Notes under the pieces: generated by a model | Database searches by the model: none | Told to the model about the DNA's origin: nothing | Seen by the model: only the letters and a program-made list of their open reading frames with translations | Translations under genes and position numbers: made by a program | NCBI GenBank assembly: GCA_965228475.1 | Contig: OZ245817.1 | Span: 2,432,001-2,496,000 of the forward strand | Reading direction: 5' to 3' | DNA length: 64,000 nt | From: Myxococcota bacterium | GTDB taxonomy: Bacteria; Myxococcota_A; UBA9160; JAFDDA01 | In this document: positions 346 through 27,126 of the stretch, one piece after another | Position numbering within the stretch: position 1 is the first letter of the stretch | Layout: every line of letters begins with the position of its first letter

Positions 346-397
346 AACCGGAGAGGTTGGACAGAGCTGCGGCGCGGGTGGGGTGCGCGGCAGCGGA

Positions 398-474
398 TGG
401 TCGGGCCGGGGAGATTCGAACTCCCGACCTCCTGAACCCCATTCAGGCGCGCTACCAAGCTGCGCTACGGCCCG
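398..474 (-). tRNA. tRNA-Pro (GGG)
   Basis: Reverse complement CGGGCCGTAGCGCAGCTTGGTAGCGCG-CCTGA-ATGGGGT-TCAGG-AGGTCGGGAGTTCGAATCTCCCCGGCCCGACCA gives a cloverleaf, TTCGA T-loop and encoded CCA. Confidence 0.97.
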
Positions 475-550
475 ACGGACCCATTCGTAGCCTTGTCTCG
501 CGGGGGAGTCCACTCCGCGCGGGCTCGGCCCGTTCGAAACCGGGCCGCGA

Positions 551-2932
551 TCACTCGAAGCTGATGTGGCGGTTCTCGGCGGAGACTTCGACGGTCCGCA
601 CGACGGCGCGGCCGCCGGGGAACTCCGCGCGGAAGACGTGGAGGCCGGGGCTCAGCTCGTAGCCGATCAGCGGGGTCTCGCCGGCCGTCTTGCCGTCGAT
701 CAGGATCTTCGCCCACGGGATGGCGTGGATGTTCACGCGCACGGTGTCCGCGGCCGCGGCGCTCGGCGCGGGGGCCGGGCGGACGGCGGCGGTCCGGGGG
801 GCGGGCTCCGGCGGCGGCTGGGGGGCTGCGGCCGTCGGCGCAGGAGTCGCGCGGACGGGTGCGGGCTCGGGTTCCGGCGTCGGCTCCGGAGCCGGGGCGA
901 CGGGGCGCGGCGGCGCCGGCGTGGCCGCGACGACGGGGGCCGGCGCGGTGGCCGAGGTCGGCACGCGGGTGCGGGTCGAGGGCGCCGGACGCGGGGAAGC
1001 CGTGGTCTCGGGCGGCGCCGGACTCGGCGGAGCCGTCGCGCTTCGCGGAGCCGGACTCGGGGCGCGGGCCGTCTCGGAAGGTGCCGGGCGCGGGGTCGTG
1101 ACGTTCTCGGGCGGCGTGAACGGCGAGCGCGCGGGGCGCGGTTCGACGGCGGGCGCCGGCGGCGCGGAGGGCGTCGCCGACCGCGTCGGTTCGCTTCGCC
1201 GCACCGGGACTTCGGGTTCGTCGCGCGGGGGCGGCTCGGTGCGCGGAGCTTGCGCGGGCGTCGGCTCCGGCGCGGGGCGCCGAGCGACGGTGGGCGTTGC
1301 AGCCTCGGGCTCGGGCGATTCCGCACGGGCCGGGATCTCGGAATCCGGAGAGGCCGTTGCCGAGCCCTCGGCCGGCGCGGCTTCCGGCTCGGGCGCTTCG
1401 ACGAATTCGGGCGGATCCCCGGGCGCCTCCGCAACCGAATCGTCGACGACGGCCGCCGGGCCGATCGGCACCTTGGGCCGCTCGGCTTCGCCGGGCAGGA
1501 GGCCATCGATGCCTCGCAGCAGATACGGCATTGCGACGGCCAGGACCCCGAGGCCCGCCACGGCGAGCCAGGCCGTGCGCGTGCGGGAGCGGCGGCGGTC
1601 TCGCAGGGGCGCACCGCTCGCGGCGGCCGGCTCGGCGATCGGGGGCGGCTCCGGTTCAGGGGTCTCCTCCACCGTTTCGGCGGGCGCCGGGGCCTCCTCC
1701 GACGCCGCTTCGCTCGCAGCCACCGCGCCGACGTCCCGCAGCGCCGGAAACGAGTCTTCTTCGTCGGTGGCCGGCTCGGGATCCGCTTCGGGTTCGGCTT
1801 CAGGCTCGGGGGAAGCCCCCGCCTCGTCCGCAGGCGTGTTCGCGGCTACCGCGGCACCTGCCAGTGCTGCTGCGGCCACCGCGGGCTCCTCGACCTCCGG
1901 CTCGGGATCCACGGGCTCCATCGGCTGGGTGTCTTCGCCGGAGACGGCCACGGGTTCCGGCTCGGCGATCGGGGCCTCCGCCACGGGTTCCGGCTCGACG
2001 GGCTCGGCCGTCGCGGCGCGGACGGCTTCCGGCACGGGCTGCACGCCGCGCGTGCGCCGCGGCGGTGCGGCCTGTTCGGCGGCCAGCGCTGCGGCCGCCG
2101 CCGCGGCCGCGCTCACCTCGATCTCGGCCTCTTCCTCCTCGGTGTCGAGCGGCTCGGCCGGCGGTTCCTCGGCGCGGCCCTGCTCGTCGCGGGCCCACTG
2201 GTCGATCGCCGCCGCGGCGTCGGCGTCGGGTTCGAGGCGCCAGACCACCGAGGCCAGCTCGTGGATGCGCCGCGGGTTGCCGGCGGCCGCGCCGTGGATG
2301 CGCGCGACGGTGTCCGCATCGAAGCGGCCGGTTCGCTCGGCCTCCTGGGAACGCTCGAGCCGCGCGCGCACGTAGGCGGCCGTCTGATCCGCGGTCATCG
2401 GCGCGTCGTATCGCACCTCGTGGAGGTCCGGGCCGAGGGCGGCCATCACCGAACCGAGGCGCGAATCGTCGACGGCGCCGAAGACCGCACGCAGCGCTCC
2501 GCCCGAGGCGGAGACCAGCGTCGCGAGCTGGCGCGCGGTCGAGAGCGGGAGGGCGCTCGCGTCGTCGACCATCATCAGGATCTCGCGGCCGTCGCCCGCC
2601 GTGCGGAAGGCGCAGTCGAGGAGCGCGCCCTCCGGGTCCTCGGCGCGGGCGTCCTCGCCGAGGGCCTCGAGCACCCAGCGGCAGAGCTCCGGCGCCGAGA
2701 GCGCCGGGTACGGCACCCAGACCACGCGGAAGGAACCGACCAGGCGGTCCGCCGCCACGTGCAGGAGGAAGGTCTTCCCGAGCCCGACCGGGCCCGTCAG
2801 CGCCACGGGATGGGCCGAGTCGCGGACCCGCCGCTCGAGCTCCGCCAGGACCGCGTCGCTGTCGGGACGGGCCACGTAGTGGGCGGGGTTCGAGGTGCTT
2901 TCGAAGGGGTCGCTGGCAGCGGCCGTACTCAA
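551..2932 (-). CDS. ExeA/GspA-like AAA ATPase with long acidic linker, one TM helix, Pro-rich stalk and C-terminal PEGA-like domain
   Basis: Walker A GPVGLGKT, Walker B-like MMVDDA, GNPRRIHEL sensor helix, TM WLAVAGLGVLAVAMPYLL, terminal VNIHAIPWAKILIDGKTAGETP...LSPGLH; TTG start at 2932 is inferred. Confidence 0.75.
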   Translation of the reverse strand: MSTAAASDPFESTSNPAHYVARPDSDAVLAELERRVRDSAHPVALTGPVGLGKTFLLHVAADRLVGSFRVVWVPYPALSAPELCRWVLEALGEDARAEDPEGALLDCAFRTAGDGREILMMVDDASALPLSTARQLATLVSASGGALRAVFGAVDDSRLGSVMAALGPDLHEVRYDAPMTADQTAAYVRARLERSQEAERTGRFDADTVARIHGAAAGNPRRIHELASVVWRLEPDADAAAAIDQWARDEQGRAEEPPAEPLDTEEEEAEIEVSAAAAAAAALAAEQAAPPRRTRGVQPVPEAVRAATAEPVEPEPVAEAPIAEPEPVAVSGEDTQPMEPVDPEPEVEEPAVAAAALAGAAVAANTPADEAGASPEPEAEPEADPEPATDEEDSFPALRDVGAVAASEAASEEAPAPAETVEETPEPEPPPIAEPAAASGAPLRDRRRSRTRTAWLAVAGLGVLAVAMPYLLRGIDGLLPGEAERPKVPIGPAAVVDDSVAEAPGDPPEFVEAPEPEAAPAEGSATASPDSEIPARAESPEPEAATPTVARRPAPEPTPAQAPRTEPPPRDEPEVPVRRSEPTRSATPSAPPAPAVEPRPARSPFTPPENVTTPRPAPSETARAPSPAPRSATAPPSPAPPETTASPRPAPSTRTRVPTSATAPAPVVAATPAPPRPVAPAPEPTPEPEPAPVRATPAPTAAAPQPPPEPAPRTAAVRPAPAPSAAAADTVRVNIHAIPWAKILIDGKTAGETPLIGYELSPGLHVFRAEFPGGRAVVRTVEVSAENRHISFE

Positions 2933-3649: not shown

Positions 3650-4263
3650 GACCGCGCGCGGGGCGCGCGGCCGCGCTGGCCGCCGCGGCCGCCCTGCTGC
3701 TCGCCGCCAAGGACCCGAGCGCGCCCGGCGCCTACTGCCCGCTCCCCAAGGAGGGCGAGGTGCCGAGCTGCCTGGCCGGCGCCCAGGAGCAGTACGAGGG
3801 CTTCTTCCTCGGCGTCGAGAAGGGCGAACTCGACGAGAGCGAGGTCGCGCGGGTCGAGGCGGCCGTGCGCGGGAAGGAAGGCACCGAGCGCTTCGACGCC
3901 CTCTCCTCCCTGTCCTACGGCTACTTCATGCTCGCGCGGGCCCAGGCCGCTTCGGAGAACCCGGACCCGAGGCTGCGCGAGCGGCTCGAGGCCTGGAACG
4001 GCGTCCTGACCGAGGCCTACCAGGAGAACGACGCGGACCCGCGCTACCGCGCCGCCGTTCGCGCCGCGGCCCTCGATCTCAAGGAGAGCGTGCCGGCCCT
4101 CGGCCTGCGCTGCACGGACGCCGAAGGCCACCCGACCGAGTGCGCCTCGACCGAAGCGGTGATCCGCGCCATCGACGCCGCGCGCCAGCAGACCGGCCTG
4201 CGCGGCGCCCTCTCGCGCCTGCTCGGAGCCCTGTTCGGCCCCGACCCCGAGCCCGCGCCTTGA
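3646..4263 (+). CDS. Hypothetical exported protein with four cysteines
   Basis: GTGA overlap with the upstream stop; hydrophobic N-terminus AAALAAAAALLLAA; two Cys pairs. Confidence 0.65.
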   Translation: MRPRAGRAAALAAAAALLLAAKDPSAPGAYCPLPKEGEVPSCLAGAQEQYEGFFLGVEKGELDESEVARVEAAVRGKEGTERFDALSSLSYGYFMLARAQAASENPDPRLRERLEAWNGVLTEAYQENDADPRYRAAVRAAALDLKESVPALGLRCTDAEGHPTECASTEAVIRAIDAARQQTGLRGALSRLLGALFGPDPEPAP

Positions 4264-20230: not shown

Positions 20231-22081
20231 CTACGCCGAGAGCGCGATGCCGAGATCGCGCTGCAGGCCGAAAGCCAGGTGTTCGACGAGCGCCCGGTCC
20301 GCGGTATGGAAGAGGCACTCGTCCCCCTCCTCGGCCGCGCCGCGCAACAGGGCATAGGCCGGGCCCTCGCCGTAGTAGAGGACGAAGGGATGCGTGATGC
20401 CGGCCTCCTCGGCCACGACCGTCGTCAGCGGAATGCCGGCCGGCGCCTCGGCCCCGTCGGCCACGAAGATCACCTGGGTGCCGAGCTCGACCCCGCGCAG
20501 GGCTTCGAGGCCTTCGCGCAGGGACGGCGAGAGCGGGCCCCCGGGCGCGAGGAACAGGAGGCCGCGGTCGCCCGGGCGCCGGACGAGCTCGTCGAGAAGG
20601 AAGCGCGTGGCCTGCTCCGCGGTGCGCGGCGCGCCCGGGCCGGCCACCCGCAGGAGGCCGGCGGCCATCTCCTCGAATGGCGTCTCCCCGCCGACGAGTT
20701 CCTTGGCGACGCTCGTGCGGGCCTCCTCGAGGCGGGCGTCGAGCACGCGGACGAGCGGTTCGAGCTGGTCGCCATCGCCCGGGAAGGTCGCCGCCGAGAG
20801 CGTGACCTCGGGCTGGAGGTCGCAGCCCTCGGGCTTCAAGACGGACTCGCGAGCGATCATGTCGCGGATGCGGCGCTTCAGGACGGCGGCGCCGAGGGCA
20901 TCGGTCTCCGGGAGCAGGATCCGGTAGCGCGCGTCGCTCTCGGTCGCGACGAGGTCCGTCGCACGCAGGGCGCGCCCGATGTGGAAGACGATCGACTCGA
21001 GCCAGTGGCCGAGCTCCGGGTCCGAGAGCCGCTGGCGCATGGGCGCCAGGTTCCCGAGCTCGAGCTTCAGCATCGAGAAGTGCCGGCCGAAGCGGCTCGC
21101 CTTGTTGATCTCGTTGCGCGCGAGGTCCTCGAAGTAGGCGAGCGTGTAGGCCTTGGTCGTCGGGTCCTTGAAAGAGCGACGCTCGAGGGAGCGGAAGCGC
21201 TGGGCGTTGCCGAGGGCGAGCCCCGAGAGGTCCACGAACTTCTCGACGGCGGCGCGGTCGGAGTCCTCGAAGGCCGCGCGCTCGAGCTTGTCCGTCAGCC
21301 GCGCGAGGGCCACGAGGCTCCCGTTGCGCACGAAGGGAACGTAGAGCGCGCCGGCCGCCTGCTCGTGCCCCGCAAGATCGTGGACGCTGTCGATCACGCA
21401 GCTCGTCCCCGCCGGATCGCTGAGATCGGAGAGCTCCGTCGGGAAGCGGCTCGGCAGGATCTCCTCGGGCTCGTCGACCATGCGCACGAGGCCCTTGGCG
21501 GCCACCAGGCGCAGGGTGTTCGCGTCCTCGCTCGGCTGGGCCCAGAGCACGCCGCCCTGGGCACCGGTCTCGAGACAGAGCCCGTCGACGATGCGCTCGG
21601 CCAGGGGCTCGAGCGAGAGCGTCGCGAACAGGCCCATGGCCCGCTCGTAGAGCGAGAGCTCGCCCATGTAGTCGAGGTTCTCTTGCATCAGGCGGTGATG
21701 CTCGTTCTCGAGCCGCCGCCGCTCGAAGAGCCGTTCGAGGGTGTGCTGGAGGGCGCCGCGCTCGATCGGCTTCAGCTGGTAGTCGAGCGCGCCCTGCTTC
21801 ATGCACTCGACGGCGGTCTTCACGTCGCCGCCGCTCGCGAGCACGACGATGCCGAGGTCCGGGTAGCCGTCGCGCAGGGCGCGGACGAAATCGGTGCCAT
21901 CGGCGTCGGGCAACAGCACGTCGGTCAGGACGACGTCGAAGTTCTCGCGTTCGAGGGCGCGGCGGGCTTCCGCGGCGGAGCCCGCCGTGCGGACCTCATA
22001 GCCGTCCTCTCCCAGGAGCTCTTCGATGAAGGCCCGGAAGTACGGTTGATCGTCGACTGCGAGTATTCGTCCGCTCGGCAC
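20231..22081 (-). CDS. Response regulator REC-GAF-degenerate GGDEF protein with C-terminal extension
   Basis: ILAVDD...DVVLTDVLLPDADG...DYQLKP; GAF-like middle; KDPTTKAY...EINKASRF; RATD-5 aa-SDARY in place of RxxD-5 aa-GGDEF, then ILLPETD. Confidence 0.85.
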   Translation of the reverse strand: MPSGRILAVDDQPYFRAFIEELLGEDGYEVRTAGSAAEARRALERENFDVVLTDVLLPDADGTDFVRALRDGYPDLGIVVLASGGDVKTAVECMKQGALDYQLKPIERGALQHTLERLFERRRLENEHHRLMQENLDYMGELSLYERAMGLFATLSLEPLAERIVDGLCLETGAQGGVLWAQPSEDANTLRLVAAKGLVRMVDEPEEILPSRFPTELSDLSDPAGTSCVIDSVHDLAGHEQAAGALYVPFVRNGSLVALARLTDKLERAAFEDSDRAAVEKFVDLSGLALGNAQRFRSLERRSFKDPTTKAYTLAYFEDLARNEINKASRFGRHFSMLKLELGNLAPMRQRLSDPELGHWLESIVFHIGRALRATDLVATESDARYRILLPETDALGAAVLKRRIRDMIARESVLKPEGCDLQPEVTLSAATFPGDGDQLEPLVRVLDARLEEARTSVAKELVGGETPFEEMAAGLLRVAGPGAPRTAEQATRFLLDELVRRPGDRGLLFLAPGGPLSPSLREGLEALRGVELGTQVIFVADGAEAPAGIPLTTVVAEEAGITHPFVLYYGEGPAYALLRGAAEEGDECLFHTADRALVEHLAFGLQRDLGIALSA

Positions 22082-22113
22082 GTTCCCCCCTGCCCGGCCG
22101 GCGCTTCCCGCGG

Positions 22114-23589
22114 CTAGTGGCCTTGCGACGCCAGACCCTCGGGCCCGGGATCGCCGGCTGCCGCGGGCCCACGCGGCCCGCCCCTGCGCAACCCATCGGC
22201 AGAATCGCCTCCGGGCTTCACTCCATCCAGTGATTTCGGACGTCCGATCATGGAGTGGGGGGTCGCCTCCACGATTTCGACGCGGGCCAGGGCCCCCGGC
22301 GCCAGCTCCGCACCGCCCTCGAGGTTCACGCGGCGATGGTGGGCGTCGCGCCCGCAGAGCTGGCGGCCTCCGCGGCGGCTCGGCCCTTCCACCCGCACCT
22401 CGACCGTCGTGCCGACCCGGCTGCGATGCGTAGCCAGCCGGAGCCGGGCCTGGAGCGCCTGGAGGCGTTCGAGCCGGTCCTGGGCCACGTCCTCGGCCAC
22501 CTCGCCGGGCAGCTCGGAGGCCCGCGTGCCCGGCCGCGGCGAGTACTTGAAGGAGAAGCTGTCGACGAACCCGACGGCCTCGACGAGCGCCAGGGTCGCC
22601 TCGAAGTCCTCCTCGGTCTCCCCCGGGAAGCCCACGATCAGGTCCGTCGTGAGGTCGATGTCGCTGCGCGCGGCGCGCAGGGCCGCCACGATCTCGAGGT
22701 ACTCCGCCGCCGTGTAGCGGCGCCGCATGAGCTCGAGCATCCGGTCCGAACCGCTCTGCACCGGGAGGTGGACGTGGGGGCAGAGCCGCTCGAGCTTCGC
22801 GTGGGCGGCCACGAGCGCCTCGTCGAAGAAGAGCGGGTGCGGGCTCGTGTAGCGGATGCGGTCGAGGCCCGGCGTCGCATCGAGCGCCGCGAGCAGCTCC
22901 GCGAAGGGCATCGTGCCGAGGGCCTCGGCCTTGCCCCGGCGCACGTCGTGCCGGCCGTAGGCGTTCACGGTCTGGCCGAGCAGCGTGATTTCGCGGACCC
23001 CCTGCGCGGCGAGCTGGCGCGCTTCTTCGAGGATCCCGGCGGCGGGCCGGCTGATCTCGCGGCCGCGCGTCGTCGGCACGATGCAGAAGCTGCAAAACAT
23101 GTCGCAGCCCTCCATCACCGTGAGGAAGGCGCGGCCCGGCGTCGTGCTCGAGAAGGACGGATGGCGCTCGGGCAGGTCGAAGCGGTCGAGCGAGCGCGAC
23201 TCTTCGGTGCGCACCGCCCGCTGGCCGTCGAGGGCCGCCTCCGCCAGGGCCGGCACGCGCACGAGGTTGTGCGTCCCGAAGACGAAGTCCACCTGGTCGA
23301 AGCGGTCGAGCAGGACGTCGCCCTCCTGCTGGGCCACGCAGCCTCCCACGCCGATCACGCGTTCGGGCCGGGCCTCCTTCCAGGCGCGGAGCTTGCCGAC
23401 GTCGCTGTAGAGCTTGTGCTCGACCTTGTCCCGGATCGAGCAGGTATTCACGATCAGGAGATCCGCCGAGTCCGGATCCGCTGCGGCCTCGTAGCCCGCA
23501 TGGTGGAGCAGGTTCGACACCTTCTCGGTGTCGTGGACGTTCATCTGGCATCCAAAGGTGCGGATCCAGAAGCGGCGAGGCTCGGCCAC
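22114..23589 (-). CDS. miaB: tRNA i6A37 methylthiotransferase
   Basis: TFGCQMNVHDTE, NTCSIRD, GGCVAQ, EGCDMFCSFCIVP, HLPVQSGS, DLIVGFPGET, YSPRPGT, TRAM domain. Confidence 0.95.
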   Translation of the reverse strand: MAEPRRFWIRTFGCQMNVHDTEKVSNLLHHAGYEAAADPDSADLLIVNTCSIRDKVEHKLYSDVGKLRAWKEARPERVIGVGGCVAQQEGDVLLDRFDQVDFVFGTHNLVRVPALAEAALDGQRAVRTEESRSLDRFDLPERHPSFSSTTPGRAFLTVMEGCDMFCSFCIVPTTRGREISRPAAGILEEARQLAAQGVREITLLGQTVNAYGRHDVRRGKAEALGTMPFAELLAALDATPGLDRIRYTSPHPLFFDEALVAAHAKLERLCPHVHLPVQSGSDRMLELMRRRYTAAEYLEIVAALRAARSDIDLTTDLIVGFPGETEEDFEATLALVEAVGFVDSFSFKYSPRPGTRASELPGEVAEDVAQDRLERLQALQARLRLATHRSRVGTTVEVRVEGPSRRGGRQLCGRDAHHRRVNLEGGAELAPGALARVEIVEATPHSMIGRPKSLDGVKPGGDSADGLRRGGPRGPAAAGDPGPEGLASQGH

Positions 23590-23801
23590 GGTGGCTCCAG
23601 GGGCTGCGGGACGTTCGCGCCGCGCGGCGATGCGGCCCGTTCCGGGCATGCCGCGATGCGTTGCGAAGCCTCGCGACGGTAACGGAGCGCGAAGACCTGC
23701 GTCAAACGCCACCCGGGGCCCATTCGGCCCGCAAATAGACGTGCAAAATCAGGGTCATCGGTCGGGAATCGTTGATGTTTTGCGGGCGAGGAAAAACGTG
23801 T

Positions 23802-23829
23802 TTGACAACGTTCGGGCCCCCTGCATAAT
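23802..23829 (+). promoter_or_regulatory. Sigma70-type promoter
   Basis: TTGACA-16 nt-CATAAT with an AT-richer upstream tract, in a genome where such hexamers are rare. Confidence 0.7.
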
Positions 23830-23835
23830 GGCTCT

Positions 23836-23955
23836 CGGAGGGCCGGTGGATTAGACATTTCGAGTTCGAAATGTCCAACCTCTCACCCCCCATAATCCGT
23901 CCACCGGACCTCCACGCATTCGAAAAGCCCCGCTGGGAAACCAGCGGGGCTTTTT
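23836..23955 (+). ncRNA. Candidate small non-coding RNA of about 120 nt
   Basis: Lies between a promoter and an intrinsic terminator with no credible ORF; outer stem, 9-bp inner hairpin and C-rich loop. Confidence 0.65.
23923..23955. terminator. Bidirectional intrinsic terminator
   Basis: AAAA-GCCCCGCTGG-GAAA-CCAGCGGGGC-TTTTT: perfect 10-bp stem with A and T tracts on either side. Confidence 0.9.
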
Positions 23956-23999
23956 CGTTCTTCGCGGTTCATCGGGTTCGGGAGCGCTAGGGCACGGGC

Positions 24000-24695
24000 T
24001 CACCCGTAGACCATCTCCGGGTACATGAGGTCGACGGCGAAGAAGAAGACCGGCATGAAGATCTCGTCGAAGATCCGCCACGCGATCAGGATGCCGATCC
24101 AACCGAGCATCGGCTCCCGGGTCACGTTCATCCACGCCTCGCTGGCGCGCTCGCTGAGGAGCAGCGGCAGCGCGCCTGCCCCATCGAGGGGCGGGACCGG
24201 GAGGAGATTCAGCACGAACAGCACCAGGTTCATGGAGAAGAATACGCCGACGATGTAGCCGACCTGCTCGAGGCCCGGCGTTGCCGCCGCGGTGATGGCC
24301 GCGAAGCGGATGGAAGGCGGGGGGAAGAAGATTTCGAGTGCGATCCCCGCGCGAATCAGCAAGGCCGCGATCAGCACGAGTGCGAGGTTCGCCGCAGGCC
24401 CCGCCAGCGCCATCCAGGCTGCGCGCCGCGGGTGAGCCCGCGCCCAATCCGGGTCGTACGGGGCGCTCGCAAAGCCGAACGGCCAGCCCGAGATCGCCAC
24501 CGTGATCAGCGGCAACAGCACCATCCCCACGGGCTCGCGCCGGATGTGGGGAATCGGGTCGAGCGTGACCTGCCCCCCGTGGTACGCGGTCGGATCTCCG
24601 CCGCGGAGCGCCGCCCACGCATGCGCCGCCTCGTGAACGGTCACCGAAAACAGGAACGCGACGTAGAAGACGAGGGCTCCGACCGGGTCTTCCAT
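24000..24695 (-). CDS. Site-2 protease (peptidase M50) family protein
   Basis: HEAAH, GDPTA, TLDP..H, AGPAAN, NLLPVPPLDG. Confidence 0.92.
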   Translation of the reverse strand: MEDPVGALVFYVAFLFSVTVHEAAHAWAALRGGDPTAYHGGQVTLDPIPHIRREPVGMVLLPLITVAISGWPFGFASAPYDPDWARAHPRRAAWMALAGPAANLALVLIAALLIRAGIALEIFFPPPSIRFAAITAAATPGLEQVGYIVGVFFSMNLVLFVLNLLPVPPLDGAGALPLLLSERASEAWMNVTREPMLGWIGILIAWRIFDEIFMPVFFFAVDLMYPEMVYG

Positions 24696-24704
24696 CGGCG
24701 CCGG

Positions 24705-26123
24705 CTACAGGATCAGGCCGTCGACGATCTTCGAGAGCTGGCGGAGGTTGCGGACCTCCTCGGCCACGTCGGTGTAGGGCAGATAGCGATCCATCACGGA
24801 GTCGCCGAAGCCCCAGGCGCCGGGGCTCTCCGGGTTCAGCCAGACGACGTTCTTGGCCTTGTCGTGGATGTCGCGCACGCACCAGGCCTTCGGGTCGTTG
24901 TAGTTGTTGCGGGCGTCCCCGAGGATCAGGACCGTGGTCTTGTTGTCGACCGCCGAGAGGAAGTCGCGCCAGAAGGTGTGGAACGCGAAGCCGAAGTTGC
25001 TGCGCGTGTAGACGTTGATCACGCCGCCGCCGTCGAGGGCGCTCTCGACGGCCTCGTTCACTTCCTTTTCCTGGAAGACCGAGGAGACCTCGCCGAGCTC
25101 CGCCACGAACACGAAGGTCCGGATCTTGGTGAAGGCTTCCTGCAGCGCGTACATGAACTGCAGCATGAAGCGCGAGACGTTCGCCACGGAGCTCGAGACG
25201 TCGCACAGGATCACGAGCTTCGGGCGGTCCTTCTTCTTCTGCTTGTAGACCACGTCGAAGGGCACGCCGCCGTGGCTCATGTTCTTGCGCAGCGTGTAGT
25301 GGAGGTCGAGCTTCCCCTTCTTCAGGCGGCGGCGGCGGATCGAGAGGATGTTCTTGATGCGCTGGGCGAGGCGGTTCACGACCTCGCGCATCTGCTTGAT
25401 CTCTTCCTCGGTCAGGTTGTAGAAGCTCTTCTCGAGCAGGCTCTCGCGGCGGAACTTCTCCATGTAGTCGAGGTTCTGCTTGCGCAGCTCGCGCTCGGTG
25501 AAGTTGCGCACGGTCTTGCGGAGCGCTTCCTGGATCCGGCCGAGGTGCTCCATCAGCCCCTCGACCTCCTCCTCGCCCATGCCCGCGTCGCGCAGACGCT
25601 GGGCCAGCGCTTCGAGCTGCCCCATCGCGCCCTCGGCGTTCATCTGCTCAAGGATGCGGCGCGTGAAGAAGCCGACCTGGAGCATGTTCTCGATGCGGCC
25701 GGTCCCCGCCTGCTCGGCGGCGTCGCGGATCATCTGCTCGAGCTGGTCGAGGTCCATGGTCAGGAGCGCCTGGGCGAGGTCGTTCAGGTCGATGTCGCCC
25801 GGGTCCATCTCGCCCATCAGCTCCTGGAGCCGCTGCATGAGCTGATCCATGTCCATGCCTTCGGGAAGGCCGCCGGCGGCGCCTTCGAAGTTCTGGCGGA
25901 GCTCGTCGTAGAAGCCCGACCAGAAGAGGTCGAAGAGCTGGTCGAAGGTCCCGATGTCCTCGTTCTTCTTGACCATGGACGCGCGCAGGGCGTCCTTGAA
26001 GATCTCGCGCTCGTCGAGCGAGAGGCGGTCGAGGGCGTCGAAGGCGTCGATCGACTCCGCCACCGACACCCGAACGCCGCTCTTCCGAAGCAGATTCCCG
26101 AACTCGACGAGCTTCTTCTGCAT
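24705..26123 (-). CDS. CoxE-like VWA domain protein
   Basis: FGNLLRKSGVRVS, LDLHYTLRKN, MIDAS-like CDVSSSV, VLILGDARNN, VWLNPE. Confidence 0.9.
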   Translation of the reverse strand: MQKKLVEFGNLLRKSGVRVSVAESIDAFDALDRLSLDEREIFKDALRASMVKKNEDIGTFDQLFDLFWSGFYDELRQNFEGAAGGLPEGMDMDQLMQRLQELMGEMDPGDIDLNDLAQALLTMDLDQLEQMIRDAAEQAGTGRIENMLQVGFFTRRILEQMNAEGAMGQLEALAQRLRDAGMGEEEVEGLMEHLGRIQEALRKTVRNFTERELRKQNLDYMEKFRRESLLEKSFYNLTEEEIKQMREVVNRLAQRIKNILSIRRRRLKKGKLDLHYTLRKNMSHGGVPFDVVYKQKKKDRPKLVILCDVSSSVANVSRFMLQFMYALQEAFTKIRTFVFVAELGEVSSVFQEKEVNEAVESALDGGGVINVYTRSNFGFAFHTFWRDFLSAVDNKTTVLILGDARNNYNDPKAWCVRDIHDKAKNVVWLNPESPGAWGFGDSVMDRYLPYTDVAEEVRNLRQLSKIVDGLIL

Positions 26124-26133
26124 CAACCGGCTC

Positions 26134-27126
26134 CTAGTGGAGGACGCCCTTCTTGGCCTTGTCCGTCGGCGCTTCGACGGGCTTCTCGGCGGCTTCCTTG
26201 GCGGTCTGCTCCTCGGCCTTGCGCACGATCAGCCGGCCGAGTTCGCTCTCGGCCTTCCGAATGTCGCCCTCGTACTTGAGGATGATCGAGAGCGTGTCCT
26301 TGACGATCGACTCGTCGAGCTCGTTCGAGTTCAGCACGAGCAGCGCCCGCGCCCAGTCGAGCGTCTCGGAGATCGAAGGCGTCTTCTTCAGGTCGAGCTT
26401 GCGGATGCGGTGCATCACGCCGACCAGCTCCTCCGCCAGCCGGTCCGCGATGCCCGGCACCTTGGCCTCGAGGATCTTCTGCTCGAGGGCTTCGTCCGGG
26501 AAATCGATGAACAGGTGGAGGCAGCGGCGCTTCAGGGCGTCGCTCATCTCGCGGGCGTCGTTCGAGGTCAGGATCACGAGGGGCGTCTGCTTTGCCTCGA
26601 AGGTCCCGATCTCGGGCACCGAGACCTGGTAGTCCGAGAGCACCTCGAGCAGGAACGCCTCGAACTCCGGATCCGACTTGTCGACCTCGTCGATCAGGAG
26701 CAGGACCGGATCCTCCGAGGTGATCGCCCGCATGAGCGGCCGCGGCACGATGAACTGGTCCGAGAAGAACACGCTGTCCTGCTGGCCGACGCGGGCCGCG
26801 GCCTCCTGGATGGTGCTCGCCCCCTCCATCGACTCCGTGAAGCGCTCCTTCAGGATCTGGGTGTAGAGGAGCTGCTTCGAGTACTCCCACTCGTAGAGCG
26901 CCTTGGCCTCGTCGAGCCCCTCGTAGCACTGGAGGCGGATCAGCTCGCGATTCGTCGCCGCGGCGACGACCTTCGCGAGCTCCGTCTTTCCGACGCCGGC
27001 CGGGCCCTCGACGAGCACGGGCTTCCCGAGCTGCTCCGCGAGGTACACCACCGTGGCGATGTTCTTGCCACAGATGTAGCCCTGGGCATCCAGGGAAGAG
27101 ATGACGTCGTCGACCGATTCGAACAT
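26134..27126 (-). CDS. MoxR/CoxD-like AAA+ ATPase
   Basis: EGPAGVGKTELAK, RLQCYEGLDEAKALYEWEY, LLIDEVDK, SDALKRRC, PSISETLDW. Confidence 0.92.
   Translation of the reverse strand: MFESVDDVISSLDAQGYICGKNIATVVYLAEQLGKPVLVEGPAGVGKTELAKVVAAATNRELIRLQCYEGLDEAKALYEWEYSKQLLYTQILKERFTESMEGASTIQEAAARVGQQDSVFFSDQFIVPRPLMRAITSEDPVLLLIDEVDKSDPEFEAFLLEVLSDYQVSVPEIGTFEAKQTPLVILTSNDAREMSDALKRRCLHLFIDFPDEALEQKILEAKVPGIADRLAEELVGVMHRIRKLDLKKTPSISETLDWARALLVLNSNELDESIVKDTLSIILKYEGDIRKAESELGRLIVRKAEEQTAKEAAEKPVEAPTDKAKKGVLH

What the first reader, a model, noticed from the sequence alone, without database searches (positions are those of the whole stretch)
23802..23955. Stand-alone small RNA gene candidate: promoter, nested stems, C-rich loop, terminator
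Seen on the plus strand, opposite to all neighbouring genes: TTGACA-16-CATAAT; outer stem GGAGG-g-CCGGTGGA (23837-23850) with TCCACCGG-a-CCTCC (23900-23913); perfect inner hairpin GACATTTCG-AGTT-CGAAATGTC (23854-23875); unpaired CAACCTCTCACCCCCCA; an alternative GGATTA/TAATCC pairing; then a 10-bp GAAA-looped terminator with a T run. No credible ORF. Known: exposed C/U-rich loops in sRNAs often pair with G-rich Shine-Dalgarno regions. Inference: a trans-acting regulatory sRNA of about 120 nt that I cannot assign to a known family.
Basis: partly seen in the sequence, partly recalled or inferred. Interest (0 to 1): 0.75.

Follow-up and report, generated by a model that had tools for sequence, protein, structure and literature searches.

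The report
New C-rich small RNA of Myxococcota
This is a real but uncatalogued gene for a roughly 125-base regulatory RNA, kept almost letter for letter across one whole class of Myxococcota, whose exposed C-rich stretch matches the unusual G-rich ribosome-binding sites of the cell-division genes ftsA and ftsZ.

Summary

**It is a conserved gene.**
- There is one copy per genome. It was found in 36 of 40 relatives and in at least 120 Myxococcota MAG contigs.
- In a phylum sample, hits fell in 22 of 23 same-order and 4 of 4 sister-order genomes, and in 0 of 123 others.
- A 25-base stretch, GAAATGTCCAACCTCTCACCCCCCA, hardly varies. The nested stems covary.
- A TTGACA-N16-18-CATAAT promoter lies upstream in 101 of 129 loci, on the plus strand only.
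- There is no Rfam match and no paper.
- It sits between miaB and a MoxR-type AAA/VWA operon.

**Proposed mechanism (inferred).** The unpaired C-rich stretch pairs with G-rich ribosome-binding sites.
- In the window's genome it matches 10-11 contiguous bases at the ribosome-binding sites of the adjacent genes ftsA and ftsZ.
- The ftsZ match recurs in 15 of 28 in-class genomes, and in none of 22 outgroup genomes at the ribosome-binding site.
- A hairpin with a G-rich loop in the nrdJ 3'UTR is a second recurring match.

**Weaknesses.** No transcript has been shown. Genome-wide pairing energies are no better than those of shuffled seeds.

This scan saw the same family before on another genome (e1-2103030).

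The parts
23802..23829 (+). Sigma-70-type promoter, TTGACA-16-CATAAT. The predicted transcription start is about 23836-23837.
   Evidence: It is the only such site in 23000-25000. A match of at least 10 of 12 positions to the same consensus lies within 120 nt upstream of the stem in 101 of 129 unique relatives. The reverse strand has 0 of 129 and a control region 1 of 126.
23837..23850 (+). P1, 5' strand (GGAGG, bulged G, CCGGTGGA).
   Evidence: Folding. In relatives, 5 of the 10 inner P1 pairs show compensatory changes, and 97.7% of cells are paired.
23854..23875 (+). P2 hairpin (GACATTTCG-AGTT-CGAAATGTC). The loop varies in relatives; the stem sequence is nearly fixed.
   Evidence: 96.8% of cells are paired, and 2 of 8 pairs show compensatory changes.
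23868..23892 (+). Near-invariant 25-mer GAAATGTCCAACCTCTCACCCCCCA. It covers the 3' strand of P2 plus the C-rich seed.
   Evidence: Among the 30 loci that BLAST found independently of the motif, 28 carry it exactly and 2 differ by one base. At least 120 further contigs were found by exact pattern.
23876..23899 (+). Unpaired stretch CAACCTCTCACCCCCCATAATCCG, the proposed pairing seed (an anti-Shine-Dalgarno-like sequence).
   Evidence: It is unpaired in both the MFE and the centroid structure. It is complementary to the ftsA and ftsZ ribosome-binding sites and to the nrdJ 3'UTR hairpin loop.
23900..23913 (+). P1, 3' strand (TCCACCGG, bulged A, CCTCC).
23923..23962 (+). Intrinsic terminator: AAAA, a 10-bp GC stem with a GAAA loop, then TTTTTCGTTCTT. 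It is probably bidirectional, since the M50/VWA operon ends 38 nt beyond it on the other strand.
   Evidence: A comparable hairpin followed by a T-rich tail comes after the core in the relatives printed. The simple scan did not list it.
22114..23589 (-). miaB, the divergent upstream neighbour. This neighbour is conserved.
   Evidence: Pfam finds UPF0004, Radical_SAM and TRAM. TIGR01574 scores 467 bits. The same gene lies upstream in 90 of 98 loci that have enough flank.
24705..27126 (-). Convergent operon of a MoxR-type AAA ATPase (26134-27126) and a VWA_CoxE protein (24705-26123). Its presence tracks that of the sRNA.
   Evidence: Pfam. The nearest NCBIfam families are MadB and MadC, both below their cut-offs. 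The VWA gene lies within 1.5 kb downstream in 111 of 150 loci. The ortholog is present in exactly the 25 genomes of the phylum sample that have the canonical sRNA, and in the window's genome.
24000..24695 (-). M50-family peptidase gene lying between the sRNA and the VWA gene. This arrangement is specific to this genome.
   Evidence: Pfam. Among the 150 loci it is found only in the window's own locus.

Best explanation
The window holds a stand-alone gene for a non-coding RNA of about 125 nt. It is transcribed on the plus strand from its own sigma-70-type promoter and ends at an intrinsic terminator.

The RNA folds into a long stem closed by its 5' and 3' parts (P1). P1 encloses a small hairpin (P2) and a 24-nt unpaired stretch that carries the near-invariant CCAACCUCUCACCCCCC.

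I propose that this stretch is the seed of a trans-acting, base-pairing sRNA. It resembles the 3' end of 16S rRNA (UCACC...). It would occupy unusual G-rich ribosome-binding sites of the GGGGGGUGAGA type, block 30S binding and so repress translation.

The best candidate targets are the adjacent cell-division genes ftsA and ftsZ. A hairpin with a G-rich loop in the 3'UTR of the ribonucleotide reductase gene nrdJ is a second kind of candidate site.

Shown here: the gene's anatomy, its conservation, its strand, its distribution, its synteny and the conserved complementarity. Inferred: transcription, pairing in vivo, repression, and any link to the cell cycle.
For: **The gene**
- Promoter, stems and terminator are at the stated coordinates.
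- There is one copy in the window's genome.
- It was found in 36 of 40 relatives. One miss, G001, is explained by a contig that ends right after the VWA gene.
- The covariance model hits 22 of 23 same-order genomes, 4 of 4 sister-order genomes and 0 of 123 genomes in the rest of the phylum.

**The structure**
- 95.3% of cells are paired, against 44-54% when the partners are slid.
- 7 pairs show compensatory changes, in 27 cells.
- 0 of 500 shuffles reach the covariation score.

**The strand**
- G-U pairs are frequent: for example U-G in 37 sequences at one P1 pair and G-U in 34 at one P2 pair.
- The promoter consensus is on the plus strand only.

**The seed and its candidate targets**
- The seed is unpaired in the fold.
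- The window's genome generally uses GGAGG/AGGAG as its Shine-Dalgarno sequence, and its 16S 3' end is canonical. Even so, ftsA has GGGGGGTGAGAcATG and ftsZ has GGGGGTGAGAcgATG.
- ftsA ranks 8th and ftsZ 14th of 3383 ORF starts for predicted pairing energy.
- In relatives, the best seed site in the ftsA-ftsZ spacer falls at the ftsZ ribosome-binding site. It beats at least 190 of 200 shuffled seeds in 15 of 28 in-class genomes. For the ftsA start region the figure is 12 of 30.
- Control start regions do far worse: miaB 5 of 111, AAA 4 of 20 and VWA 0 of 21.
- A G6+ run occurs in the ftsZ leader in 22 of 28 in-class genomes against 1 of 22 outgroup genomes. G5+TGA occurs in 12 of 28 against 0 of 22.
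- The 12-mer complement GGGGGGTGAGAG occurs 79 times in 41 class genomes, against 5 for the reversed control. At least 33 of the 79 are the sRNA gene's own antisense strand. In the same-order genomes, 11 of the 23 remaining hits lie at an ftsA or ftsZ ribosome-binding site or in the nrdJ 3'UTR.
- An nrdJ 3'UTR hairpin with a G-run is present in 12 of 20 same-order genomes. In the MFE fold, at least 4 of the G's are unpaired in 11 of those 12.

**Precedents**
- DicF represses ftsZ by pairing at its ribosome-binding site (PMC5069750; passages read).
- 6C uses C-rich loops without RNA chaperones in high-GC bacteria (PMC6486639; abstract read).
- No Hfq or ProQ family match was found in the window's genome.
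Against: - No transcript is shown. Two marine metatranscriptome runs from one study hold 151-161-nt contigs of a close relative, but these run into the promoter region and past the terminator, so DNA carry-over cannot be excluded.
- Genome-wide pairing energies are not significant. Eight shuffled seeds give as many strong hits (212-478 at or below -18 kcal/mol) as the real seed (375).
- The sRNA and the G-rich ftsZ leader are both clade-wide traits. Their co-occurrence is therefore close to a single evolutionary event.
- 7 of 19 same-order genomes and 6 of 9 sister-order genomes carry the sRNA but have a poor ftsZ match.
- The nrdJ hairpin is missing from 0 of 11... that is, it was found in none of the 11 sister-order genomes. 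RNAalifold on the MAFFT alignment did not recover it, and no pair showed a compensatory change.
- The invariance of 25 nt, which includes the 3' strand of P2, exceeds what a pairing seed needs. It hints at a further constraint, such as a protein partner or many targets.
- The strict phyletic tie to the AAA/VWA operon is not explained by this model.
Confidence: 0.5

Rival explanations
1. It is a base-pairing sRNA, but ftsA, ftsZ and nrdJ are not its physiological targets. The matches would reflect G-rich sites that exist for other reasons, and the real regulon lies elsewhere.
For: - Shuffled C-rich seeds find as many strong sites in this 70% GC genome as the real seed does.
- Other sites with 10-12 nt of complementarity exist. 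They lie at the starts of a DHH/DHHA1 phosphoesterase, a DEAD/ResIII helicase and a C5-methyltransferase-like gene.
- In the sister order, the same G-rich ribosome-binding site precedes a small protein made of basic KKAT repeats.
- 12 of the 23 non-sRNA 12-mer hits in same-order genomes lie at places I did not identify.
Against: - The real seed beats at least 190 of 200 shuffles at the ftsZ ribosome-binding site in 15 of 28 genomes. For three control genes the range is 0 of 21 to 4 of 20, with miaB at 5 of 111.
- The ftsZ G-run is specific to the class.
Confidence: 0.2
2. It is the RNA partner, or a dedicated regulator, of the neighbouring MoxR-type AAA/VWA pair. It would act as a protein-binding RNA or as part of an RNP rather than as an mRNA-pairing sRNA.
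For: - Phyletic co-occurrence is perfect in the phylum sample. The VWA ortholog (at least 60% identity) is in all 25 other genomes with the canonical sRNA, and in no other genome.
- Family f9 lacks the VWA gene: 0 of 3 genomes. In f9 the sRNA is either not found (G010, G025) or has a rewritten interior (G018).
- The two lie close together in 111 of 150 loci.
- The 25-nt invariance exceeds the needs of a seed.
Against: - Nothing suggests RNA binding. Pfam finds only VWA_CoxE and AAA domains.
- The structure model is poor (pLDDT 62.9). Fold search gives only generic VWA/MIDAS matches such as NorD and MDN1, all with E above 0.001.
- There is no match by sequence in the PDB.
- Other genes separate the sRNA from the operon by 0.5-12 kb in the window and in several relatives.
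- Loss of a contiguous block would also explain the shared absence.
Confidence: 0.15
3. It acts in cis as an antisense or convergent-transcription partner of the operon that ends at the shared terminator.
For: - The convergent arrangement, with the VWA stop codon close behind the sRNA terminator, is seen in most loci.
- The terminator hairpin has A- and T-runs on both sides.
Against: - In the window, an M50 peptidase gene lies between them. In some relatives, 0.5-12 kb lie between them.
- The conserved core lies beyond the terminator as seen from the operon.
- The AAA and VWA start regions show no complementarity to the seed.
Confidence: 0.08
4. It is not a functional RNA. It would be a DNA-level element, such as a protein-binding site or repeat, or a tiny protein-coding gene.
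For: - The minus strand folds about as well as the plus strand.
- An ATG-led frame overlaps the invariant stretch.
Against: - There is a single copy per genome.
- The promoter and the G-U pairs are specific to the plus strand.
- The stems show compensatory changes.
- The frame varies in length from 9 codons to read-through of the terminator. It has no Shine-Dalgarno sequence and is invariant at synonymous positions.
Confidence: 0.04

Closest known systems
6C sRNA (B11) of Actinobacteria
   Same: It is a small RNA of high-GC bacteria with its own promoter and terminator, highly conserved across a large clade. Exposed C-runs pair with G-rich mRNA sites without Hfq or ProQ, and its targets include DNA replication genes (PMC6486639, abstract). 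Here too, no Hfq or ProQ match was found.
   Different: There is no sequence or structure match: no 6C row appears in the Rfam search up to E = 10. The phylum is different. Here the C-run sits in a single internal unpaired stretch closed by a long terminal stem, not in hairpin loops; only the diverged f9 copy has it in a hairpin loop.
DicF of Escherichia coli (and DinR of Klebsiella)
   Same: These are sRNAs that repress cell division by pairing with the ftsZ ribosome-binding site (PMC5069750, passages read; PMC10907235, search listing and abstract only). That is the mechanism proposed here.
   Different: DicF is prophage-encoded and processed from a longer transcript, and it is unrelated in sequence (no Rfam match). 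This RNA is a core-genome gene conserved across a class. Its regulation of ftsZ is only predicted.
RsaE/RoxS of Firmicutes and other C-rich-motif sRNAs
   Same: Unpaired C-rich motifs act as anti-Shine-Dalgarno mimics on several mRNAs. This rests on my general knowledge; I read no paper on it here.
   Different: There is no Rfam match. The architecture and the clade are different. Here there is one long invariant stretch rather than repeated short CCCC motifs.
Pxr sRNA of Myxococcus
   Different: There is no match to any Rfam family, Pxr included. This RNA was found in 0 of 123 genomes of the other classes of the phylum.
Y RNA with Ro60 (Rsr)
   Same: A long stem is formed by the 5' and 3' ends, with a bulge and a pyrimidine-rich internal loop, and the gene lies near one for a protein with a vWA domain. 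The comparison rests on general knowledge.
   Different: There is no Rfam match. The neighbouring protein has VWA_CoxE but no TROVE domain. The fold search finds Ro only through its generic vWA domain, at rank 43 with E = 0.07, using a poor model.

Membership tests
Trans-encoded base-pairing sRNA (generic kind) | An independent transcription unit with its own promoter and an intrinsic terminator, and no coding frame | tested here: met
   The promoter is conserved on the plus strand in 101 of 129 loci, against 0 of 129 on the reverse strand. There is no conserved ORF.
Trans-encoded base-pairing sRNA (generic kind) | A conserved, structurally accessible seed | tested here: met
   The stretch is unpaired in the MFE and centroid structures. 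The 25-mer is exact in 28 of the 30 loci that BLAST found independently of the motif.
Trans-encoded base-pairing sRNA (generic kind) | Conserved complementarity to target mRNAs | tested here: inconclusive
   The ftsZ ribosome-binding site scores in 15 of 28 in-class genomes, against 5 of 111 (miaB), 4 of 20 (AAA) and 0 of 21 (VWA) for three control genes. Outgroup ftsZ ribosome-binding sites lack the site. However, genome-wide energies are no better than those of shuffled seeds.
Trans-encoded base-pairing sRNA (generic kind) | A discrete transcript is detected | tested here: inconclusive
   RNA-library contigs of a close relative exist, but they extend beyond the promoter and the terminator. 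Contigs cannot show RNA ends or strand.
6C RNA | Match to the Rfam covariance model | tested here: not met
   No such row in the Rfam search of 23600-24100 up to E = 10.
6C RNA | C-rich apical loops on two hairpins | tested here: not met
   The C-run lies in an internal unpaired stretch between P2 and P1.
DicF | Match to the Rfam model; a prophage context | tested here: not met
   No match. The context is a conserved core-genome position between miaB and the AAA/VWA operon.
Pxr | Match to the Rfam model | tested here: not met
Y RNA / Ro60 RNP | An adjacent Ro60 (TROVE domain) gene and a match to a Y RNA model | tested here: not met
   Pfam finds only VWA_CoxE in the neighbouring protein. There is no Rfam match. 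The fold search gives generic VWA hits only.

The most novel reading that the evidence does not exclude
A single anti-Shine-Dalgarno-mimic sRNA, fixed across a whole class of Myxococcota, would coordinate cell division (ftsA and ftsZ translation) with dNTP supply (nrdJ, through a kissing contact with a G-loop hairpin in its 3'UTR). On this reading, the class rewired the ribosome-binding sites of its division genes to an unusual GGGGGGUGAGA form so that they could be read by this RNA. The RNA would in addition be functionally coupled to the MoxR-type AAA/VWA remodelling pair with which it is co-inherited and co-lost.
Probability: 0.25. Interest if true: 0.8.

Novelty: new member of a known kind. 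Interest (0 to 1): 0.6.

Why it matters
- Regulatory RNAs of Myxococcota outside Myxococcus are almost unknown. This one is a core-genome gene of an entire, mostly uncultured class, and no catalogue or paper I could search describes it.
- If the predicted targets hold, it would be a chromosomal, clade-wide counterpart of DicF. It would be a simple RNA switch on FtsZ and FtsA synthesis, possibly tied to deoxynucleotide supply.
- It would also be an example of ribosome-binding sites and an sRNA seed co-evolving.
- The covariance model built here can annotate the gene in MAGs.
- The invariant 25-mer is a convenient marker for the class.

Tried and rejected
- **Rfam:** nothing at gathering score over the whole window except three tRNAs. 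At E up to 10 over 23600-24100, only terminator-driven chance rows appeared.
- **ARAGORN:** no tRNA or tmRNA.
- **Small ORF reading:** rejected.
not conserved.
- **My first neighbour assignment:** I took a 1106-aa response-regulator/GGDEF ORF as the upstream gene. This was wrong, because its N-terminal half is a shadow frame over miaB. I corrected it.
- **Genome-wide RNAduplex target ranking:** not significant against shuffled seeds.
- **miaB, AAA and VWA start regions as targets:** no conserved complementarity.
- **Expression:**
  - Metatranscriptome contigs from two runs of one study cover a close relative but do not delimit a transcript.
  - Small word shares in other metagenome runs were not interpreted.
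- **nrdJ hairpin:** RNAalifold on a MAFFT alignment of 12 selected sequences gave a different, weak consensus with no compensatory pairs. Only per-sequence folds support the hairpin.
- **VWA protein as an RNA-binding partner:**
  - The ESM Atlas gave only unnamed clusters for residues 1-250.
  - There is no relative by sequence in the PDB.
  - The AlphaFold model was poor, at pLDDT 62.9.
  - Foldseek gave only generic VWA domains with E above 0.001.
- **Meaning of the NCBIfam names MadB and MadC:** a paper search found nothing relevant.
- **Further look-ups of this scan's notes:** nothing more on this family.

Full report
**Observation.**
- The promoter is TTGACA (23802-23807), 16 bases, then CATAAT (23824-23829).
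- The outer stem is GGAGG-g-CCGGTGGA paired with TCCACCGG-a-CCTCC (23837-23850 with 23900-23913).
- The inner hairpin is perfect, at 23854-23875.
- A 24-nt unpaired C-rich stretch runs from 23876 to 23899.
- The terminator is a 10-bp stem with a GAAA loop, followed by TTTTT (23927-23955).

The promoter is the only sigma-70-like site in 23000-25000, against 0.1 expected. The plus-strand fold reproduces the drawn structure: -65.7 kcal/mol, z = -7.3, and 0 of 200 shuffles as good. The minus strand folds nearly as well. The simple scan did not list the terminator. GC content drops to 0.55-0.59 here, from about 0.70-0.75 in the flanks.

**It matches no known RNA.**
Rfam 15 gives only three tRNAs in the window at gathering score. 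It gives nothing credible over 23600-24100 up to E = 10. ARAGORN finds nothing.

**Neighbours.**
The upstream gene, divergent on the minus strand, is miaB at 22114-23589. My first reading of a 1106-aa ORF there was a shadow frame. The response-regulator/GAF/GGDEF gene is at 20231-22090.

Downstream, convergent on the minus strand, lie three genes. They are an M50 peptidase (24000-24695), a VWA_CoxE protein (24705-26123) and a MoxR-type AAA ATPase (26134-27126). ribBA comes before them. The nearest NCBIfam families for the VWA and AAA proteins are MadC and MadB, both below their cut-offs.

**Conservation.**
- The element is single-copy in the 5.0-Mb genome.
- BLAST finds it in 36 of 40 relatives, spanning 11 of 12 families of the order. 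The core is 73-90% identical.
Nearly all are labelled Myxococcota or Deltaproteobacteria MAGs.
- Among the 30 loci found by BLAST, 28 carry the 25-mer GAAATGTCCAACCTCTCACCCCCCA exactly and 2 differ by one base.
- A covariance model hits 27 of 151 genomes in a phylum sample. These are the window's genome, 22 of 23 same-order genomes, 4 of 4 genomes of a second order in the same class, and 0 of 123 others. Each has one hit.
- Of the four BLAST misses, G001 has a contig that ends right after the VWA gene.
- The other three misses belong to family f9. In G018 a diverged copy remains. It keeps the promoter and P1 but has a rewritten interior, with the C-run in a hairpin loop.

**Structure and strand.**
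I counted pairs on a model-fitted alignment of 100 sequences, which leans towards the model. Over the 22 pairs of P1 and P2:
- 95.3% of cells are paired, against 44-54% for slid partners.
- 7 pairs carry compensatory changes, in 27 cells.
- 0 of 500 shuffles reach the covariation score.

Frequent G-U pairs would be A-C mismatches on the other strand. A match of at least 10 of 12 positions to TTGACA-N16-18-TATAAT, usually with CATAAT as the -10 box, lies within 120 nt upstream in 101 of 129 unique loci. The reverse strand has 0 of 129 and a control region 1 of 126. Both results assign the RNA to the plus strand. The distance from the -10 box to P1 varies from 7 to 92 nt, so relatives have variable leaders. 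The overlapping ATG frame is not a conserved ORF.

**Synteny.**
miaB lies upstream in 90 of 98 loci with enough flank. The VWA gene lies within 1.5 kb downstream in 111 of 150 loci. The M50 insertion is unique to the window.

In the phylum sample, the VWA ortholog (at least 60% identity) is present in exactly the 25 other genomes that have the canonical sRNA. Eleven outgroup genomes have only distant homologs, at 23-41% identity. Family f9 lacks it in all 3 genomes searched. I cannot explain this tie. The AAA and VWA start regions are not complementary to the seed. A structure model of the VWA protein was poor and matched only generic VWA domains.

**Targets.**
The window's genome uses canonical GGAGG/AGGAG Shine-Dalgarno sequences and has a canonical 16S 3' end. 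Perfect complements of 10 nt or more to the seed include the ribosome-binding sites of the adjacent genes ftsA (11 nt, ending one base before the ATG) and ftsZ (10 nt). By RNAduplex they rank 8th and 14th of 3383 ORF starts. Shuffled seeds, however, give as many strong hits genome-wide.

Across relatives, the best seed site in the ftsA-ftsZ spacer is the ftsZ ribosome-binding site. The real seed beats at least 190 of 200 shuffles in 12 of 19 same-order genomes and 3 of 9 sister-order genomes. For ftsA the figure is 12 of 30.

Controls do much worse:
- miaB: 5 of 111
- AAA: 4 of 20
- VWA: 0 of 21

The 22 outgroup genomes, which lack the sRNA, have ordinary ftsZ ribosome-binding sites. Only 3 of the 22 pass the shuffle test, and none of those sites is at the ribosome-binding site. 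A G6+ run in the ftsZ leader occurs in 22 of 28 in-class genomes against 1 of 22 outgroup genomes. The C6+ control gives 3 of 28 against 2 of 22.

The complement 12-mer occurs 79 times in 41 class genomes, against 5 for the reversed control. At least 33 of the 79 are the gene's own antisense strand. In the same-order genomes, the 23 other hits divide as follows:
- 5 at ftsA or ftsZ ribosome-binding sites
- 6 in a hairpin just after the stop codon of the B12-dependent ribonucleotide reductase gene nrdJ
- 12 at places I did not identify

The window's genome has this nrdJ hairpin too. It is present in 12 of 20 same-order genomes and in 0 of 11 sister-order genomes. In per-sequence folds, at least 4 G's of the run are unpaired in 11 of 12. 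A consensus fold did not support it.

**Other checks.**
- No Hfq or ProQ match was found in the genome.
- Expression could not be shown.
- No paper contains the seed or describes such an RNA in Myxococcota.
- Functional precedents are DicF (PMC5069750, passages read) and 6C (PMC6486639, abstract read).
- This scan had already noted the same family on another genome (e1-2103030). My results agree with that note. They add the strand assignment, the class-level distribution, the tie to the VWA operon and the candidate targets.

**Verdict.**
This is a real, uncatalogued small RNA gene that is conserved across a class. Its most likely mode of action is pairing of the C-rich stretch with G-rich ribosome-binding sites. 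ftsZ and ftsA are the leading candidate targets, and they remain unproven.

Noticed in passing
G000:C1:3122695-3124050 (outside the window; L159 3690-5050): ftsA and ftsZ both start behind an unusual G-run ribosome-binding site (GGGGGGTGAGAcATG and GGGGGTGAGAcgATG), in a genome whose general Shine-Dalgarno sequence is GGAGG. The G-run in the ftsZ leader is specific to the class: 22 of 28 in-class genomes against 1 of 22 outgroup genomes.
   Followed up: yes
G000:C1:645250-645330 (outside the window; L272 about 3750-3830): A hairpin with a G-rich loop lies between the nrdJ stop codon and its terminator. It is found in 12 of 20 same-order genomes and 0 of 11 sister-order genomes. It could be an sRNA docking site or a 3'UTR-derived RNA.
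   Followed up: partly
window 24000-24695: An M50-family peptidase gene sits between the sRNA terminator and the VWA gene only in this genome (1 of 150 loci). It looks like a lineage-specific insertion into an otherwise fixed arrangement.
   Followed up: partly
window 24705-27126 and the phylum sample: The MoxR-type AAA / VWA_CoxE pair, nearest to NCBIfam MadB/MadC but below their cut-offs, has the same phyletic pattern as the sRNA and is missing from family f9. The N-terminal 250 residues of the VWA protein match no family.
   Followed up: partly
L324 (G018:C171) 440-620, minus strand: Family f9 keeps a diverged copy with the promoter and outer stem intact but the interior rewritten. The C-run is now in the loop of a 7-bp hairpin, and the CCAACCUCUCA part is gone. 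This genome also lacks the VWA ortholog and the G-run at its ftsZ ribosome-binding site.
   Followed up: partly
L227 (G186) and L236 (G187), sister order: A small gene for a protein made of KKAT repeats, very basic and histone-H1-like in composition, starts directly behind GGGGGGTGAGAG. It is another possible target.
   Followed up: no
window 351-363: A 13-nt perfect complement to the P2-proximal part of the invariant stretch (GAGAGGTTGGACA) lies next to the tRNA gene at 401-474. This may be chance.
   Followed up: no
window 20231-23551, minus strand: A 1106-codon open frame spans two real genes, the response-regulator/GAF/GGDEF gene and, out of frame, miaB. It is an example of long shadow ORFs in 70% GC DNA that can mislead annotation.
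   Followed up: yes
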